This document shows positions 2,301-31,983 of a DNA stretch of 64,000 nt, in pieces; position 1 is the first letter of the stretch, and each line of letters starts with the position of its first letter. The notes beneath the pieces were generated by a model. It searched no databases. It saw only the letters and a list, made by a program, of their open reading frames with translations, and was not told the origin of the DNA. The DNA is taken from the NCBI GenBank assembly GCA_001822835.1, contig MHSS01000008.1:9039-73038 (forward strand), read 5' to 3'. The translations under genes were made by a program, and so were the position numbers. The DNA is from Candidatus Terrybacteria bacterium RIFCSPHIGHO2_01_FULL_48_17. Its GTDB lineage: Bacteria; Patescibacteriota; Minisyncoccia; Terrybacterales; 2-01-FULL-58-14.

Positions 2301-2707
2301 AATCTTGGCTTTTTCCTCTTACAATCGCAGTGATTTTATGGGGTATTGCAGCGTTTCTTCGCAAGAAGGCGGTTTTTTTCTTGCCCCCTCAAAGTGCATT
2401 AACCTTTGAAATTTTTGGAGGGGTGCTTATGGTTATTATCATCCTTGCGCTTACGGGCGGGCAGCTCGTGCGTGAGCCGCGCGGTGCGTTCTTTGGTGTG
2501 CTCACCGGCCTTCTTGCGGTAGGCGGTACGTTTTTTATCTTTCGTGCCTTAAAAGAGGGCCCGGTGTCAATTATCACGTCTTTCACCGCGCTTGCTATAG
2601 TGATTACCGTAGTTCTTGGCGTAACAGTGCTTCACGAAAAACTGCTGCCGCATCATATTGCCGGAATCGCCATGGGTATTGCCGCCGCCATTCTGTTGAG
2701 TTTTTAG
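2297..2707 (+). CDS. small EamA/DMT-family membrane protein (four TM helices, 136 aa from internal ATG)
   Basis: Hydrophobic profile MKSWLFPLTIAVILWGIAAF...LHEKLLPHHIAGIAMGIAAAILLSF is typical of a half-size EamA domain. The listed ORF start at 2222 overlaps the upstream gene, so ATG 2297 is preferred. Confidence 0.7.
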   Translation: MKSWLFPLTIAVILWGIAAFLRKKAVFFLPPQSALTFEIFGGVLMVIIILALTGGQLVREPRGAFFGVLTGLLAVGGTFFIFRALKEGPVSIITSFTALAIVITVVLGVTVLHEKLLPHHIAGIAMGIAAAILLSF

Positions 2708-2744
2708 AAATTAGAGATTGAAGAGTAGGAATTAGGAATTATAT

Positions 2745-2815
2745 TGCGGGGTCGTCTAACGGTAGGACAGGGGCCTTTGAAGCCCTCAATGAAGGTTCGA
2801 CTCCTTCCCCCGCAG
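2745..2815 (+). tRNA. tRNA-Gln (anticodon UUG)
   Basis: Hand-folded cloverleaf. Acceptor TGCGGGG/CCCCGCA with U1-A72 (bacterial tRNA-Gln hallmark). D-stem GTCT/GGAC. Anticodon stem GGGGC/GCCCT with loop CTTTGAA. T-arm GAAGG-TTCGACT-CCTTC. Discriminator G. No encoded CCA. Confidence 0.8.
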
Positions 2816-2825
2816 TACGAAATTT

Positions 2826-2925
2826 TCCCGCGAGCACAGCCAAGTCCCGAGCTTGCCGAGGGGCGAGTGGTTGAAAATTTCAGTATCCCGAGCGACCGGA
2901 GGGAGTCCCGAGCATCGCGAGGGAG
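2826..2925 (+). repeat. GC-rich direct repeats: three copies of TCCCGAGC-N5-GAGGG(G/A) plus a degenerate fourth copy
   Basis: ttcccgcgagc (2826); tcccgagcttgccgagggg (2845); tcccgagcgaccggaggga (2886); tcccgagcatcgcgaggga (2906). They lie between tRNA-Gln and the GIY-YIG start; coordinates +/-2. Confidence 0.7.
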
Positions 2926-2931
2926 AGAGAA

Positions 2932-3210
2932 ATGACGAGGGACTACAATATGTGGTACGTCTATATTCTTGAATGTAACGACGGAAGTTTTTATACAGGT
3001 ACTACGGATAATATCCAACGAAGGTTTTTGGAACACAGGACCGGGCAAGGAGGAAAATACACACGGTCAAAAGGGGGCGCGAAGAGGTTGGTCTACACGG
3101 AAAAACATCAAACACGCAAAAGCGCTATGCAACGCGAAGCCGAGATAAAATCGTGGCGCAGAAAGAAAAAACTCAATCTAATCAAATTCAGTAATCCTAT
3201 TTTAAAATAA
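2932..3210 (+). CDS. GIY-YIG nuclease-superfamily small protein (UPF0213/YhbQ-like, 92 aa)
   Basis: Motifs YVYILECNDGSFYTGTTDNIQRRFLEH, KYTRSKG, KLVYTEKHQTRKSAMQREAEIKSWRRKKK match a GIY-YIG domain. The gene sits next to a tRNA, as is common for this family. Confidence 0.8.
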   Translation: MTRDYNMWYVYILECNDGSFYTGTTDNIQRRFLEHRTGQGGKYTRSKGGAKRLVYTEKHQTRKSAMQREAEIKSWRRKKKLNLIKFSNPILK

Positions 3211-30628: not shown

Positions 30629-31165
30629 ATGTTTGTGATTCTTTTTGGGATATTTTGCCTCCTTTTTGGAATCTCCTTGGTTTTGGTCGTGCTTATTAGA
30701 AAATTGCCTGTTCTGGGAGAATTTAGCGCACCTTCTCCAAAGGTCAAGCTTACGATACCCAAAATAATACCATTAAAAATAGATTTCCGAGCAGCACAAC
30801 GTCGATCATTCGGGGCCCTTGAAATTGCCATGCAGGGTTTGCGAACTGCGCTCTTTGCGTTCTTGCGTATAAGTGACCGTCTTCTGCGTCTCGCGCAAAA
30901 AAAAGCGGGAAAGAAGAATGTGGAAATGCTCCCACAATTTCTGTTTCGCACGAAAAGAAGAAAAGCATATCTTGAAGAAGAAAAAAAGTTACTTGAATGG
31001 ATTGAAAATCACCACGACGATGTTGCGGCATACAAACGCCTAGGGAATCTTTATAGTGTTGCCGGAAATATTGATGAGGCACGGACTGCATTTCAACAGG
31101 CCCTCAAGCTTGCGCCCGACGATGACGAAATAAAACGCCGATTGGATGAGCTTGCAAGTTTATAG
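30629..31165 (+). CDS. membrane-anchored TPR-repeat protein (178 aa)
   Basis: N-terminal TM helix plus C-terminal TPR-like YKRLGNLYSVAGNIDEARTAFQQALKLAPDDDE. Confidence 0.5.
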   Translation: MFVILFGIFCLLFGISLVLVVLIRKLPVLGEFSAPSPKVKLTIPKIIPLKIDFRAAQRRSFGALEIAMQGLRTALFAFLRISDRLLRLAQKKAGKKNVEMLPQFLFRTKRRKAYLEEEKKLLEWIENHHDDVAAYKRLGNLYSVAGNIDEARTAFQQALKLAPDDDEIKRRLDELASL

Positions 31166-31174
31166 CTCATTATA

Positions 31175-31260
31175 GGCGCCAGGATAGCTCAGCGGCCCAG
31201 CACTAGAACAAGTTCGGTGCTGGATAAATGCCGCAGCGGTTTTGTCTGTCCGCCCTCGCC
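31175..31260 (+). other. GC-rich structured element A (hairpin CCAGCAC-TAGAACAAGTTCG-GTGCTGG at 31197-31223 inside an extended helix GCGGC...GCCGC); unidentified ncRNA candidate
   Basis: Not foldable as a canonical tRNA despite a D-arm-like ATAGCTCAGCGG. Related in inverted orientation to element B. Confidence 0.4.
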
Positions 31261-31263
31261 CAA

Positions 31264-31335
31264 GCCTGAGTAGCTCAATGGTAGAGCAACGCTTTTGTAA
31301 AGCGTAGATTGTCGGTTCGAGTCCGACCTCAGGCT
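31264..31335 (+). tRNA. tRNA-Thr (anticodon UGU)
   Basis: Acceptor GCCTGAG/CTCAGGC, D-arm GCTC-AATGGTA-GAGC, anticodon arm ACGCT-TTTGTAA-AGCGT, T-arm GTCGG-TTCGAGT-CCGAC, discriminator T. Confidence 0.85.
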
Positions 31336-31490
31336 CTCAGGCTCAGGCGTAGGTAGGCGGGTAAACCGCAGGTCGTGGGTTTTCCCGATTTGGCCCGCGA
31401 GCGCGAATCGTTATGAAGCGTGAGCGGCTGCCAGTCGCAATCCCGTACCGAACTTGTTCTGGTACGGGACGAATCCCGCTCCTGGCTTTT
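31336..31490 (+). other. GC-rich structured element B between tRNA-Thr and tRNA-Tyr (hairpin CCCGTACC-GAACTTGTTCT-GGTACGGG at 31442-31468, CGGGA-cgaa-TCCCG tetraloop hairpin, several short GC helices); unidentified ncRNA, tRNA remnant or MITE-like repeat
   Basis: 155 nt of much higher GC than the genome. The 5' GCGGGTA and 3' ATCCCGCTCC ends weakly resemble the acceptor halves of tRNA-Gly, but no D/T arms are recognisable. Confidence 0.35.
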
Positions 31491-31574
31491 GCTGGGGTAC
31501 CGAAGCGGCCAAACGGGTGTGGCTGTAAACCACATGGCTTTATGCCTTCGGGGGTTCGAATCCCTCCCCCAGCA
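31491..31574 (+). tRNA. tRNA-Tyr (anticodon GUA, long variable arm)
   Basis: GCTGGGG acceptor; D-loop AGCGGCCAAA; anticodon arm TGTGG-CTGTAAA-CCACA; variable arm TGGCTTTATGCC; T-arm GGTTCGAATCC; CCCCAGC + A. Closely parallels E. coli tRNA-Tyr. Confidence 0.85.
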
Positions 31575-31765
31575 CAATCGCTCGTTCTGCGTCGCAAGTT
31601 TTTACGCCTTTATAGATAATTTTATTTCTGATCCCACTGCCAATCCGATGAAAACTTGCGTCACGAACTCGTTGAAAAATATAACGCAACGACCACGATT
31701 AATACCTTGACTCCTGTTATACTAAGTGATACAAAAAATAATAGTACGAGGAAAGGAGAAAAATG

Positions 31766-31983
31766 TGGATACCGAAGCAAAGCTGACTTTCGGAGAGCTT
31801 AAAGTAGGCGATAGATTCATCGCATTCCCGCTTCCGGGGGATAACAAAGGCCATGGCGGATACAAAGGAATCCATTACATTTGCCAGAAAAAACAAAAAC
31901 TGATATTGTTAAATTACGTTACGCTGTGTTCTGGCGTTGAAGGTCATATGCCAGAGAACGCACCGGTAATAAAAGTCAGATAA
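31766..31983 (+). CDS. small hypothetical protein (about 72 aa, GTG start with AGGAAAGGAG RBS)
   Basis: The only clear Shine-Dalgarno in the window (aggaaaggag) lies 6 nt upstream of GTG 31766. Sequence ...KVGDRFIAFPLPGDNKGHGGYKGIHYICQKK.... Confidence 0.5.

What the first reader, a model, noticed from the sequence alone, without database searches (positions are those of the whole stretch)
31175..31490. Two inverted hairpin elements with identical 13-nt loop and covarying stems flank tRNA-Thr; 155-nt GC-rich block fills the Thr-Tyr spacer
Element A (plus strand) has the hairpin CCAGCAC-[TAGAACAAGTTCG]-GTGCTGG. Element B, read on the minus strand, has CCCGTACC-[AGAACAAGTTCG]-GGTACGGG. Both elements begin with GCCAGGA.

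The loops are identical. The stems differ but remain perfectly paired (compensatory changes). This argues for selection on RNA (or ssDNA) structure rather than a recent duplication.

On a single transcript the two loops are mutually complementary (GAACAAGTTC vs GAACTTGTTC). A kissing-loop interaction could therefore bracket tRNA-Thr.

Element B adds a CGGGA-cgaa-TCCCG tetraloop hairpin and several short GC helices. It occupies the slot where many bacteria carry another tRNA (e.g. Gly). Its ends (GCGGGTA ... ATCCCGCTCC) faintly resemble tRNA-Gly acceptor halves.

Candidates are an undescribed structured ncRNA family, tRNA-processing guide structures, a tRNA gene disrupted by an insertion, or a MITE with about 45-nt imperfect terminal inverted repeats carrying tRNA-Thr.
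Basis: seen in the sequence. Interest (0 to 1): 0.7.

Follow-up and report, generated by a model that had tools for sequence, protein, structure and literature searches.

The report
Hairpins inside a broken, nested tRNA-Thr gene
The two hairpins are not a new RNA family: they sit in the D arm and the T loop of a dismembered tRNA-Thr gene that has a second, intact tRNA-Thr gene inserted in its anticodon loop, an arrangement that recurs in one to three layers in related Candidate Phyla Radiation bacteria.

Summary
The hairpins are real: 8-bp stems, an identical 11-nt loop AGAACAAGTTC, and two compensatory stem pairs. The shared "GCCAGGA" is simply the two strands of a 7-bp tRNA acceptor stem.

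Window 31178-31487 is an "outer" tRNA-Thr(UGU) gene cut into four collinear, mutually complementary pieces by three inserts:
- a 33-37-nt D-arm insert carrying hairpin A, absent from the sister species;
- a 116-nt anticodon-loop insert (leader, intact tRNA-Thr 31264-31336, trailer);
- an 88-nt T-loop insert carrying hairpin B.

With these three segments deleted, ARAGORN calls a 72-nt tRNA-Thr.

Relatives (Candidatus Terrybacteria lineage) at the same locus show a plain tRNA-Thr, the same nesting, or a three-layer nest. Near-identical strains differ by its presence. In one species an HNH endonuclease ORF sits at the same junction.

Most likely a mobile, homing-type tRNA-Thr cassette invaded the resident gene and replaced its function. 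The outer gene then decays, and the hairpins are secondary palindromic inserts in it.

No other copy of the hairpin was found anywhere searched. Rfam matches only the tRNAs. Why the loops stay identical is unexplained. A functional A:B duplex (-43 kcal/mol) bracketing the tRNA is not excluded.

The parts
31178..31184 (+). Outer tRNA-Thr, acceptor stem 5' strand GCCAGGA
   Evidence: Pairs 7/7 with 31480-31486. It begins the tRNA that ARAGORN calls after the inserts are deleted. The same 5' end is present in the sister species, L108.
31185..31201 (+). Outer tRNA-Thr U8-A9 and D-arm remnant (TA GCTC AGCGGCC CAGC)
   Evidence: TAGCTCAGCGG is a 100% match to positions 8-18 of the plain tRNA-Thr of L119. 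The sister species has the intact D arm GCTC AACGGTA GAGC here.
31197..31223 (+). Hairpin A (stem 31197-31204, loop 31205-31215, stem 31216-31223)
   Evidence: Folds at -14.2 kcal/mol. Absent from the sister species.
31200..31232 (+). 33-nt insert in the outer D arm that carries most of hairpin A. Its boundaries are ambiguous by the 2-nt repeat GC. Counted against the sister species it is 37 nt (31196-31232) replacing TAGA.
   Evidence: Comparison with L105/L108. Deleting it, together with the other two inserts, lets ARAGORN call the outer tRNA.
31233..31245 (+). Outer tRNA-Thr: end of D stem, A26, anticodon stem 5' strand GCGGT (31236-31240) and loop nucleotides UUUGU (31241-31245)
   Evidence: GCAGCGGTTTTGT is 92% identical to positions 24-36 of the L119 tRNA-Thr. 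It pairs 5/5 with ACCGC at 31365-31369.
31246..31263 (+). C-rich leader of the inserted cassette
   Evidence: Pairs with the trailer (CCGCC/GGCGG, CGCC/GGCG) in the predicted fold. The duplex energy of -16.7 kcal/mol is not better than shuffles in this locus. The motif TGTxCCGCC is shared with L110, L124 and L135.
31264..31336 (+). Inner, intact tRNA-Thr(UGU); presumed to be the functional gene
   Evidence: ARAGORN. Rfam tRNA model, 74.9 bits. It is closest (83-85% identity) to the tRNA-Thr linked to the HNH ORF in L135.
31337..31360 (+). G-rich trailer of the cassette. It begins with a tandem repeat of the inner tRNA's 3' acceptor strand.
31361..31381 (+). Outer tRNA-Thr middle piece: G35 U36 A37 A38, anticodon stem 3' strand ACCGC, variable loop AGGTC, T stem 5' strand GTGGG, U54 U55
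   Evidence: 20/21 identical to positions 35-55 of the plain tRNA-Thr of L119 (E = 1.8e-6).
31382..31469 (+). 88-nt insert in the outer T loop, made of element E plus hairpin B. Part of it may itself be an older decayed tRNA-Thr fragment.
   Evidence: Deleting it restores the T loop TTCGAAT. Its first 40 nt are present in the sister species. Element E aligns with L137, L124 and L110 in either orientation.
31442..31468 (+). Hairpin B (stem 31442-31449, loop 31450-31460, stem 31461-31468).
   Evidence: Folds at -16.9 kcal/mol. In L124 the homologous stem CCCGTA..TACGGG brackets a whole nested tRNA unit. One strain carries a SNP at the closing pair (L004).
31470..31487 (+). Outer tRNA-Thr 3' piece: T loop CGAAT, T stem 3' strand CCCGC, acceptor 3' strand TCCTGGC, discriminator T
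   Evidence: Pairs 5/5 (one G.U) with GTGGG and 7/7 with GCCAGGA.
31491..31575 (+). tRNA-Tyr(GTA). This is a neighbouring gene, not part of the nest.

Best explanation
Shown: window 31178-31487 is one tRNA-Thr(UGU) gene (the 'outer' gene) cut into four collinear pieces. The pieces still pair with one another as acceptor, anticodon and T stems.

Shown: three inserts cut it.
1. A 33-37-nt insert in the D arm, holding hairpin A.
2. A 116-nt cassette at G35/U36 of the anticodon loop, made of a leader, a complete tRNA-Thr(UGU) and a trailer.
3. An 88-nt insert between U55 and C56 of the T loop, holding hairpin B.

The 'GCCAGGA' at both ends is the outer acceptor stem.

Shown in relatives: the same locus, after the gene run prfA, rpmE, an unnamed ORF, rpsB, tsf and a TPR-repeat protein gene, holds a plain tRNA-Thr, the same nest, or two to three nested layers. 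Presence or absence differs between near-identical strains. In one species an HNH endonuclease ORF lies exactly at the 5' junction, upstream of the inner tRNA.

Inferred: a mobile, homing-type tRNA-Thr cassette invades the anticodon loop of the resident tRNA-Thr gene and supplies a replacement tRNA, so no splicing is needed. It was originally driven by the HNH endonuclease, which has been lost in this window. The outer gene becomes a relic that decays. Repeated invasion produces nested, Russian-doll layers.

Inferred: hairpins A and B are secondary palindromic inserts in the relic's D and T loops. B belongs to an older element (E) shared with relatives. A is a later, species-specific, inverted relative of B.

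Inferred: on the operon transcript the two hairpins can pair into a duplex of about 23 bp. Together with the outer stems and the leader-trailer pairing, this puts the functional tRNA at the tip of a long stalk. The stalk may be neutral, or it may help to insulate or process the inner tRNA. Neither role is shown.
For: Pieces and pairing. Four segments of the plain tRNA-Thr of L119 map collinearly onto the window: 31185-31195, 31233-31245, 31361-31381 (20/21, E = 1.8e-6) and 31470-31477. The reconstructed outer tRNA is 89% identical to the L119 tRNA but only 76-78% identical to its own inner tRNA.

Objective peeling. Deleting only the annotated inner tRNA makes ARAGORN call a canonical tRNA-Thr(tgt) with a 33-34-nt 'intron' in L126 and L124. 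It calls nothing extra in the plain controls L127, L131 and L119. In the window, deleting the inner tRNA, 31382-31469 and 31200-31232, with no bases added, gives a 72-nt tRNA-Thr(tgt) with a 44-nt intron. A hand splice using the sister's D arm gives a perfect cloverleaf.

Sister species. L105/L108 have GCCAGGATAGCTCAACGGTAGAGCAGCGG, an intact D arm with no hairpin A.

Recurrence. Nests occur in L124/L126, L125, L128, L130 (three layers) and L137. Plain genes occur in L119, L127, L131-L134 and L129.

Mobility.
- L127 (plain) and L128 (nested) are 98-99.5% identical in the flanks up to 18 nt into the tRNA.
- L124 and L125 are 99.6% identical up to 14 nt into the outermost tRNA, then 79%.
- The window and its sister are 69-74% identical in the flanking genes but 99% identical over the RNA block (2 differences in 188 nt).

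Endonuclease. In L121/L135/L136 a 162-aa ORF follows the outer 5' half (...GCTGTTTTT|) and precedes a complete tRNA-Thr. It matches Pfam HNH PF01844 at 22.4 bits against a cut-off of 21.4.

Decay of outer layers.
- Stem mismatches in L124 and L125.
- A lost 3' half in L128.
- Deletions in the outermost layer of L130.
- D- and T-loop hairpin inserts in L125, L128 and L130.

Leader-trailer pairing. It is -12 to -29 kcal/mol in nested loci against -2 to -7 in plain ones.

No known RNA. Rfam reports only the tRNAs, even at E <= 10.
Against: - The window has no endonuclease gene (tblastn), so homing here is inferred only from relatives.
- The HNH match is barely above the Pfam cut-off, and its target site is untested.
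- The 99% identity of the whole block, non-tRNA parts included, against 69% in the flanks could mean strong purifying selection on the outer pieces rather than recent transfer.
- The outer acceptor, anticodon and T stems are still perfect in this window.
- Leader and trailer pair in every nested locus with unrelated sequences. This looks like selection on RNA structure and is not required by a pure relic model.
- The loops of A and B are identical (0 of 11 changed) while 5 of 16 stem bases differ with pairing kept. That hints at selection on the loop or on loop-loop complementarity.
- A looks recent because it is absent from the sister species, yet it is not an exact inverted copy of B.
- The 3' half of the sister's block, and so its hairpin B, could not be seen, because every contig ends inside the block.
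Confidence: 0.6

Rival explanations
1. The hairpins are functional RNA elements. Placed in the D-arm and T-loop regions of the outer tRNA-like fold, their complementary loops kiss or zip into a duplex of about 23 bp. This either replaces the lost D-loop/T-loop elbow contact or forms an rRNA-operon-like processing stalk, for example an RNase III site, that releases the inner tRNA-Thr.
For: - The loops are perfectly complementary on one transcript: -13.6 kcal/mol for the loops alone and -42.9 for the A:B duplex, against -31.1 for the two hairpins.
- The minimum-free-energy fold of 31170-31495 uses the long-range duplex and has z = -6.2.
- The loops are unchanged while the stems differ with compensation.
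- All nested loci place the inner tRNA on a long paired stalk.
- In L125 the D-loop and T-loop inserts also share their stem sequence.
Against: - Hairpin A is absent from the sister species, although the rest of the block is 99% identical, so the pairing is not conserved.
- No other species has this loop.
- Complementary loops are automatic for any inverted repeat.
- With only two copies, covariation rests on two base pairs.
- No RNA end data are available.
Confidence: 0.15
2. The outer gene is a working tRNA-Thr with three introns, one of which is itself a tRNA. Excision of the inner tRNA and of the D- and T-loop inserts, followed by ligation, would give a second mature tRNA-Thr. That would be a bacterial counterpart of archaeal multi-intron or split tRNAs.
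For: - All outer stems are intact, and the spliced product is a canonical cloverleaf.
- The block is 99% conserved against 69% in the flanks.
- The junctions are compatible with a U before the 5' splice site and a G as the last base of the insert.
- Patescibacteria are known to carry tRNA introns at 35/36, some with HNH genes (PMC13011429).
Against: - No group I match even at E <= 10.
- The inserts (33, 116 and 88 nt) are far below the 184-894 nt reported for tRNA group I introns.
- No bulge-helix-bulge geometry at any junction (inspection).
- In this window half of the D stem is replaced by the insert.
- Outer copies in relatives carry stem mismatches and deletions or lack a 3' half.
- RNase P and RNase Z leave ends that need trimming and a ligase not known for this role in bacteria (established knowledge).
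Confidence: 0.05
3. A and B are copies of a small mobile palindromic element (REP- or MITE-like), or they are the terminal inverted repeats of a miniature transposon carrying tRNA-Thr.
For: - A 27-29-nt inverted repeat flanks the tRNA.
- Hairpin A is an insertion relative to the sister species.
- Hairpins with an identical 12-nt apex ACAACTGCTTGT but unrelated stems occur in outer-tRNA loops of two other species, L128 and L133.
Against: - Only two copies in 64 kb, none in 33 related loci, and none among the 94 hits of the GCCAGGA-anchored scan of 185,579 genomes or the 6 viral hits.
- No target-site duplication beyond an ambiguous 2 nt.
- Deleting A..B restores nothing.
- No transposase gene nearby.
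- The stems differ, whereas transposase-bound ends are normally conserved.
Confidence: 0.07
4. The tRNA fragments are att-site remnants of integrase-type genomic islands, which target the anticodon-loop and T-loop sublocations of tRNA genes.
For: Partial tRNA copies lie next to intact tRNA genes, and the break points fall in the anticodon loop and the T loop. These are the classical integrase crossover sublocations (established knowledge; tRNA gene fragments are discussed in PMC9897764, seen but not read).
Against: - Integration leaves an intact tRNA plus one displaced partial copy, not two complementary halves flanking a different complete tRNA.
- The 'island' would be 116 nt.
- No integrase gene lies in the flanks.
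Confidence: 0.04
5. The near-palindrome GAAC-AA-GTTC is a DNA operator bound by a dimeric regulator at two sites bracketing tRNA-Thr.
For: The half-sites GAAC/GTTC are inverted, and the two identical copies lie 245 bp apart.
Against: - One site is absent from the sister species.
- No such site lies at this locus in any relative.
- No promoter-like site was called on the + strand here.
- The flanking GC stems have no role in this model.
Confidence: 0.03

Closest known systems
Group I introns in the anticodon loop of Patescibacteria tRNA genes (Nakagawa et al. 2026, mSystems, PMC13011429), including those at 35/36 that encode HNH endonucleases and the 'divergent' ones in tRNA-Thr(GGU)
   Same: - Same phylum.
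- Insertion in the anticodon loop of a tRNA gene at or next to 35/36.
- An HNH (PF01844) ORF associated in some copies.
- Most copies have lost the endonuclease gene.
- Standard tRNA finders miss the interrupted gene.
   Different: - No group I core is detected (Rfam at E <= 10).
- The insert is 116 nt, of which 73 nt are a tRNA, against 184-894 nt for group I tRNA introns.
- It carries a complete tRNA of the same isoacceptor instead of a ribozyme.
- The interrupted gene decays and gains further inserts in the D and T loops.
Intron-less homing by free-standing homing endonucleases (for example the Seg and Mob endonucleases of phage T4, with SegB in its tRNA gene cluster; my own knowledge, not checked here)
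   Same: - An endonuclease gene travels with neighbouring genes into a cut homologous site.
- Flanking sequence is co-converted.
- There is presence/absence polymorphism between close relatives.
   Different: - Here the cargo lands inside the target gene.
- The cargo is a spare copy of that gene.
- Repeated events leave nested gene halves.
- The host is a CPR bacterium, not a phage.
Archaeal tRNA genes with several bulge-helix-bulge introns at non-canonical positions, and the split tRNAs of Nanoarchaeum and Caldivirga (review PMC4090602, listed but not read; otherwise my own knowledge)
   Same: - One tRNA gene is interrupted at the D arm, the anticodon loop and the T loop.
- Complementary flanks hold the pieces together.
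   Different: - The host is bacterial.
- No bulge-helix-bulge motif is present at the junctions.
- No splicing endonuclease is known in this lineage.
- One 'intron' is a whole tRNA.
tRNA gene fragments left by integrative elements
   Same: Partial tRNA copies lie beside intact tRNA genes, with break points in the anticodon and T loops.
   Different: - Both halves of the same gene flank the intact tRNA.
- There is no integrase.
- The inserted unit is only about 116 nt.
REP/BIME-type palindromic repeats and rRNA-operon processing stems
   Same: GC-rich hairpins occur in inverted orientation, and a long-range duplex brackets a stable RNA gene.
   Different: - Only two copies exist.
- They are not conserved, even in the sister species.
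- They lie inside tRNA-derived sequence.

Membership tests
tRNA (Rfam RF00005 / ARAGORN cloverleaf): inner gene 31264-31336 | Full cloverleaf scoring above the family threshold | tested here: met
   74.9 bits against a gathering score of 29. ARAGORN calls tRNA-Thr(tgt).
tRNA: outer gene 31178-31487 as it stands | Contiguous cloverleaf, or a cloverleaf with one anticodon-loop intron, recognised by a tRNA finder | tested here: not met
   Not called by ARAGORN with introns allowed or by Rfam at E <= 10.
tRNA: outer gene after removal of the three inserts | Acceptor 7 bp, D arm, anticodon arm 5 bp with a 7-nt loop, variable loop, T arm 5 bp with TTCGAAT | tested here: met
   ARAGORN calls a 72-nt tRNA-Thr(tgt) after deletions only; the D stem has 3 bp. 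It is 89% identical to the plain tRNA-Thr of L119. The outer genes of L124/L126 are called after deleting the inner tRNA alone.
Group I intron | Conserved catalytic core (P3-P9) detectable by covariance model | tested here: not met
   No RF00028 match at E <= 10 in the window or L124, nor at E <= 1 in seven related loci. The bacterial-tRNA-intron model gpI_bact_tRNA.cm used by tFind was not available.
Group I intron | Length sufficient for a ribozyme (184-894 nt in bacterial tRNA genes, PMC13011429) | tested here: not met
   The inserts are 33-37, 116 (73 nt of it a tRNA) and 88 nt.
Group I intron | U as the last exon base and G as the last intron base | tested here: inconclusive
   Splitting the junction ..UUU|GUC...GGCGG|GUAA satisfies the rule. 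The homology-based junction G35|U36 does not. A 2-nt GU overlap makes the boundary ambiguous.
Archaeal-type bulge-helix-bulge (BHB) intron | Two 3-nt bulges on opposite strands separated by a 4-bp helix at the splice sites | tested here: not met
   By inspection of the junction sequences and the predicted fold. The anticodon junction has a 7-9 nt / 2-4 nt asymmetric internal loop. The T-loop junction has a 3 nt / 5 nt internal loop.
MITE / transposon with terminal inverted repeats | Terminal inverted repeats at the very ends, target-site duplication, multiple copies in the genome | tested here: not met
   The inverted repeat is internal (27-29 nt, 83%). There is no duplication at 31175/31490. 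No other copies were found.
   Hairpin A is absent from the sister species. The loop is absent from 33 related loci. All 94 hits of the genome-wide pattern scan are coding or chance matches, none with the element's layout.
Homing-endonuclease-driven mobile insertion | Endonuclease ORF inside the insert | tested here: not met
   None in the window (tblastn). An HNH ORF is present at the homologous junction in L121/L135/L136.
Homing-endonuclease-driven mobile insertion | Presence/absence polymorphism at one specific site between close relatives, with flanks conserved | tested here: met
   L127 against L128, and L124 against L125. The 5' junction is always after ..TTTTG(T) and the 3' junction before (G)TAAAC.
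Homing-endonuclease-driven mobile insertion | The endonuclease cuts the insert-free allele at the insertion site | not testable with these tools
   Needs a cleavage assay with the L121 HNH protein on a plain tRNA-Thr gene.

The most novel reading that the evidence does not exclude
The outer gene is not a relic but a bacterial tRNA whose 'intron' is another tRNA. RNase P and RNase Z excise the inner tRNA-Thr, the paired leader and trailer hold the halves together, and an RNA ligase joins them. One transcript would then yield two tRNA-Thr molecules. This would be a protein-dependent tRNA splicing pathway in Bacteria, with the A:B hairpin pairing rebuilding the elbow of the precursor.
Probability: 0.05. 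Interest if true: 0.92.

Novelty: new variant of a known kind. Interest (0 to 1): 0.6.

Why it matters
- Annotation. tRNA finders and Rfam see only the inner gene. The GC-rich 'spacer' and 'leader' that look like new ncRNAs are pieces of a second tRNA gene. The same trap exists in many genomes of this lineage.
- Mobile elements. If the homing reading holds, this is an endonuclease-linked element that solves the problem of landing in an essential gene by bringing a spare copy of the gene, not by self-splicing. That strategy explains nested, Russian-doll tRNA genes. It would sit beside the group I introns recently described at nearly the same site in Patescibacteria tRNA genes.
- Testability. 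The locus gives dated layers of tRNA decay and a strain-level polymorphism that can be followed in the Rifle aquifer metagenome series.
- Open observations. The paired leader and trailer, and the identical hairpin apices with unrelated stems, are unexplained and may point to a processing signal.

Tried and rejected
- Rfam at gathering and at E <= 10 on the window and on relatives gave only tRNAs; weak YrlA, sX4 and plastid hits merely overlap tRNAs.
- The genome-wide pattern GCCAGGA-N15-24-AGAACAAGTTCG in 185,579 species genomes gave 94 hits. All are coding (an ENKF peptide motif) or chance matches. Four have the loop inside an unrelated hairpin, which I put down to palindrome enrichment. The window's own species was not hit.
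- The viral-contig scan with ACNAGAACAAGTTCGGTNC gave 6 chance hits and no hairpin.
- Homologues of the downstream 85-aa ORF led to loci without synteny.
- A strain variant (L144) and seven other assemblies of the same species were identical across the block.
- tmRNA, RNase P RNA, SRP RNA and 6S RNA were considered from the sequence and dropped for lack of any ARAGORN or Rfam signal.
- A promoter or terminator role for the hairpins was dropped because no + strand call was made.
- An HNH remnant in the window was sought and not found.
- Hairpin A's arms match the tRNA-Tyr 3' and 5' ends (CCCAGCAC(TA), E = 0.08), and GTACCGAA in B matches tRNA-Tyr positions 7-14. These matches are too weak to build on.
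- I could not recover the 3' half of the sister species' block.
Full report
**Observation**

The two hairpins are in the sequence as described.
- Hairpin A is at 31197-31223 on the + strand: CCAGCACT / AGAACAAGTTC / GGTGCTGG.
- Hairpin B is at 31442-31468 and reads on the minus strand CCCGTACC / AGAACAAGTTC / GGTACGGG.

With a U.G closing pair in A, both are 8-bp stems with the same 11-nt loop. Five stem pairs are identical, two differ by compensatory double changes, and one is U.G versus C-G.

The 12-mer AGAACAAGTTCG occurs exactly at these two places in 64 kb. Allowing one mismatch gives 3 matches against 0.29 expected. The repeat finder reports a 29-nt inverted repeat, 83% complementary.

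ARAGORN and Rfam find tRNA-Thr(TGT) at 31264-31336 and tRNA-Tyr(GTA) at 31491-31575, and nothing else, even at E <= 10. The block has 57-60% G+C in a region of about 40%. At least eight independent assemblies of the same species carry the identical sequence.

The organism is a Candidate Phyla Radiation bacterium. A source names its EF-Ts protein cluster Candidatus Terrybacteria, from the Rifle aquifer.

**What the GCCAGGA ends are**

GCCAGGA (31178-31184) and TCCTGGC (31480-31486) are complementary strands of one helix. The sequence next to the first is TAGCTCAGCGG, a tRNA D-arm start. The sequence next to the second is CGAATCCCGC, the end of a T loop plus a T-stem strand.

The decisive clue came from the sister species, whose neighbouring TPR protein is 70% identical. 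At the same place it reads GCCAGGATAGCTCAACGGTAGAGCAGCGGTTTTGTC... This is an intact acceptor strand, D arm and anticodon-stem strand with no hairpin A. The same leader, tRNA-Thr and trailer follow.

A more distant relative, L119, has an ordinary tRNA-Thr(TGT) right after the TPR gene. Four segments of that tRNA map collinearly onto the window:
- positions 8-18 at 31185-31195;
- positions 24-36 at 31233-31245;
- positions 35-55 at 31361-31381 (20/21, E = 1.8e-6);
- positions 56-63 at 31470-31477.

The pieces pair with one another: acceptor 7/7, anticodon stem GCGGT/ACCGC 5/5, T stem GTGGG/CCCGC 5/5 with one G.U.

Three window segments were deleted with nothing added: the inner tRNA, 31382-31469 and 31200-31232. 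ARAGORN then calls a 72-nt tRNA-Thr(tgt) with a 44-nt anticodon-loop intron. A hand splice using the sister's D arm is a perfect cloverleaf. The reconstructed outer tRNA is 89% identical to the L119 tRNA and only 76-78% identical to its own inner tRNA.

**Anatomy**

The region 31178-31487 is therefore an outer tRNA-Thr(UGU) gene interrupted three times.
1. A 33-nt insert (31200-31232; 37 nt replacing TAGA when counted against the sister species) lies in the D arm and carries hairpin A.
2. A 116-nt cassette lies at G35/U36 of the anticodon loop, with a 2-nt GT overlap at the junction. It consists of a C-rich leader (31246-31263), a complete tRNA-Thr(UGU) and a G-rich trailer (31337-31360).
3. 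An 88-nt insert (31382-31469) lies between U55 and C56 of the T loop and carries hairpin B.

The CGGGA-CGAA-TCCCG 'tetraloop hairpin' is the end of hairpin B followed by the outer T loop and T stem.

**Relatives**

The gene order prfA, rpmE, an unnamed ORF, rpsB, tsf, TPR gene, then the tRNA block is kept across the lineage. At this locus the following states occur.
- Plain tRNA-Thr(TGT): L119, L127, L131-L134 and L129.
- The same nest with intact outer D and T arms: L124/L126. There, deleting only the annotated inner tRNA makes ARAGORN call a canonical outer tRNA-Thr with a 33-34-nt intron. Plain control loci give nothing extra.
- A nest whose outer gene has hairpin inserts in the D loop and T loop: L125.
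- A nest whose outer gene has a 95-nt D-loop insert and has lost most of its 3' half: L128.
- Three nested layers: L130.
- More fragmentary nests: L137, and around tRNA-Thr(GGT) in L133 and L124.

The 5' junction always follows ..TTTTG(T), and the 3' junction always precedes (G)TAAAC.

**Signs of mobility**

- L127 (plain) and L128 (nested) are 98-99.5% identical in their flanks up to 18 nt into the tRNA, then diverge.
- L124 and L125 are 99.6% identical up to 14 nt into the outermost tRNA, then 79%.
- The window and its sister are 69-74% identical in the flanking genes but 99% identical (2 differences in 188 nt) over the RNA block.
- In L121/L135/L136 the outer 5' half (...GCAGCTGTTTTT) is followed by a leader with the same TGTxCCGCC motif, then a 162-aa ORF, then a complete tRNA-Thr. 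The ORF matches Pfam HNH at 22.4 bits against a cut-off of 21.4.
- The window's inner tRNA is closest (83-85%) to that HNH-linked tRNA.

Patescibacteria are already known to carry group I introns at 35/36 of tRNA anticodon loops, some encoding HNH endonucleases (PMC13011429). Here, however, no group I core is detected and the insert is far too short to hold one.

**Most likely mechanism (inferred)**

A homing-type cassette, made of leader, sometimes the HNH gene, tRNA-Thr and trailer, enters the anticodon loop of the resident tRNA-Thr gene and brings a replacement tRNA, so no splicing is needed.

The outer gene then decays. Relatives show the signs:
- stem mismatches in L124 and L125;
- deletions in the outermost layer of L130;
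- a lost 3' half in L128;
- hairpin inserts in D and T loops.

A later invasion of the inner gene adds a layer. The window has no endonuclease gene, so this step rests on relatives.

**The hairpins themselves**

Hairpin B belongs to a module of about 60-90 nt, element E (CGGGATTGCGAYTGGCAGCCGCTC... on the strand opposite the tRNAs). E is shared with L137, L124 and L110, in either orientation. The base of its stem, CCCGTA..TACGGG, is the same stem that in L124 brackets an entire nested tRNA unit. The first 40 nt of E are present in the sister species.

Hairpin A is specific to this species. No other copy of the loop exists in the window, in 33 related loci, among the 94 hits of a scan of 185,579 genomes, or in viral contigs. 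That rules out a conserved ncRNA family and makes a mobile palindrome family unlikely.

On one transcript A and B can form a duplex of about 23 bp (-42.9 kcal/mol against -31.1 for the two hairpins). The predicted fold of 31170-31495 uses this duplex (z = -6.2). Together with the outer stems and the leader-trailer pairing, it puts the functional tRNA at the tip of a long stalk.

Leader-trailer pairing is a general feature of the nested loci: -12 to -29 kcal/mol against -2 to -7 in plain loci. It beats shuffles in L128, L130, L137, L133 and L124, but not in the window or L125. A role in insulating or processing the inner tRNA is therefore possible but not shown.

**What remains unexplained**

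- The loops of A and B are identical while 5 of 16 stem bases differ with pairing kept, yet A looks recent.
- The same pattern, an identical 12-nt apex ACAACTGCTTGT on unrelated stems, links hairpins in L128 and L133.
- The 99% identity of the block with the sister species could reflect co-conversion during transfer, or purifying selection on the outer pieces.
- The sister's 3' half could not be recovered.

**Comparison and verdict**

The closest known system is the group I intron, with or without an HNH gene, in Patescibacteria tRNA anticodon loops. This case shares the host phylum, the site and the endonuclease family. It fails the defining ribozyme features and instead carries a spare tRNA.

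It is not a bulge-helix-bulge intron, a MITE, an integrase att remnant or a known Rfam family. Searches of the paper library for nested tRNA genes found nothing comparable, which is not proof of novelty.

I rate it a new variant of a known kind, with interest 0.6. What lies underneath, nested tRNA genes with signs of endonuclease-linked mobility, is unusual and directly testable.

Noticed in passing
window 31154-31175 and 31594-31615: A 22-nt direct repeat (GCAAGTTTATAGCTCATTATAG / GCAAGTTTTTACGCCTTTATAG, 77%) brackets the whole tRNA block. The first copy overlaps the stop codon of the TPR gene (D2). It could be chance or an old recombination site.
   Followed up: no
window 31329-31349: The 3' acceptor strand of the inner tRNA-Thr is repeated in tandem (CTCAGGCT CTCAGGCT CAGGCG). 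This gives alternative pairings with the tRNA's 5' strand and leader (I2 and I5).
   Followed up: no
window 2744-3210: A 92-aa GIY-YIG nuclease-domain protein (2932-3210; Pfam PF01541, E = 1e-19) lies 115 nt downstream of tRNA-Gln. The spacer holds repeated TCCCGAGC motifs and the inverted repeat GAAATTTTC/GAAAATTTC. tRNA-Gln itself is not nested.
   Followed up: partly
L121 4788-5276 (the same ORF as L135 2576-3061 and L136 3119-3604): A 162-aa HNH endonuclease ORF lies between a tRNA-Thr 5' half and a complete tRNA-Thr. No 3' half of the outer gene remains downstream.
   Followed up: partly
L130 3028-3310: A three-layer nest. The outermost tRNA-Thr relic has a D-loop hairpin and a palindromic T loop (GCAATTGC). 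The middle layer is GCCGAGG..CCTCGGC and lacks its anticodon 5' strand. The inner tRNA-Thr is intact. Perfect leader-trailer helices of 11 and 13 bp separate the layers.
   Followed up: partly
L133 1490-1790, L124 3020-3285 and L125 1670-1827: tRNA-Thr(GGT) is also embedded. One or two tandem tRNA 5' halves and a GGATTGCGTTC motif lie upstream. An AT-rich leader pairs with the trailer. An anticodon-arm piece AACTCCATGG follows downstream, so the insertion site seems to be after the D arm (26/27) rather than in the anticodon loop.
   Followed up: no
L128 3077-3102 and L133 1705-1730: Two hairpins in different species share an identical 12-nt apex, ACAACTGCTTGT, on unrelated 7-bp lower stems. 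One lies in an outer D loop, the other in an outer anticodon-arm piece. This is the same pattern as hairpins A and B of the window.
   Followed up: no
L111 about 2530-2880, minus strand: By eye the sequence contains GAGGAAAGTCCGGAC and ACAGAATCCGGCTTA, which resemble the two P4 strands of bacterial RNase P RNA. Rfam reports no match at gathering threshold. It may be a divergent RNase P RNA of a CPR bacterium.
   Followed up: partly
L004 2036, L003 about 3800, and the ends of L105-L108: One strain has a SNP that breaks the closing pair of hairpin B. One scaffold has an N-run at window position 31421. All contigs of the sister species end inside the block, two of them after ...TTATGAAGCG. The block is evidently hard to assemble, or it varies in the population.
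   Followed up: no
window 31726-31983: An 85-aa ORF without a Pfam match lies downstream of tRNA-Tyr. Its distant homologues in other CPR contigs sit next to an RNase H gene, not next to tRNAs.
   Followed up: partly
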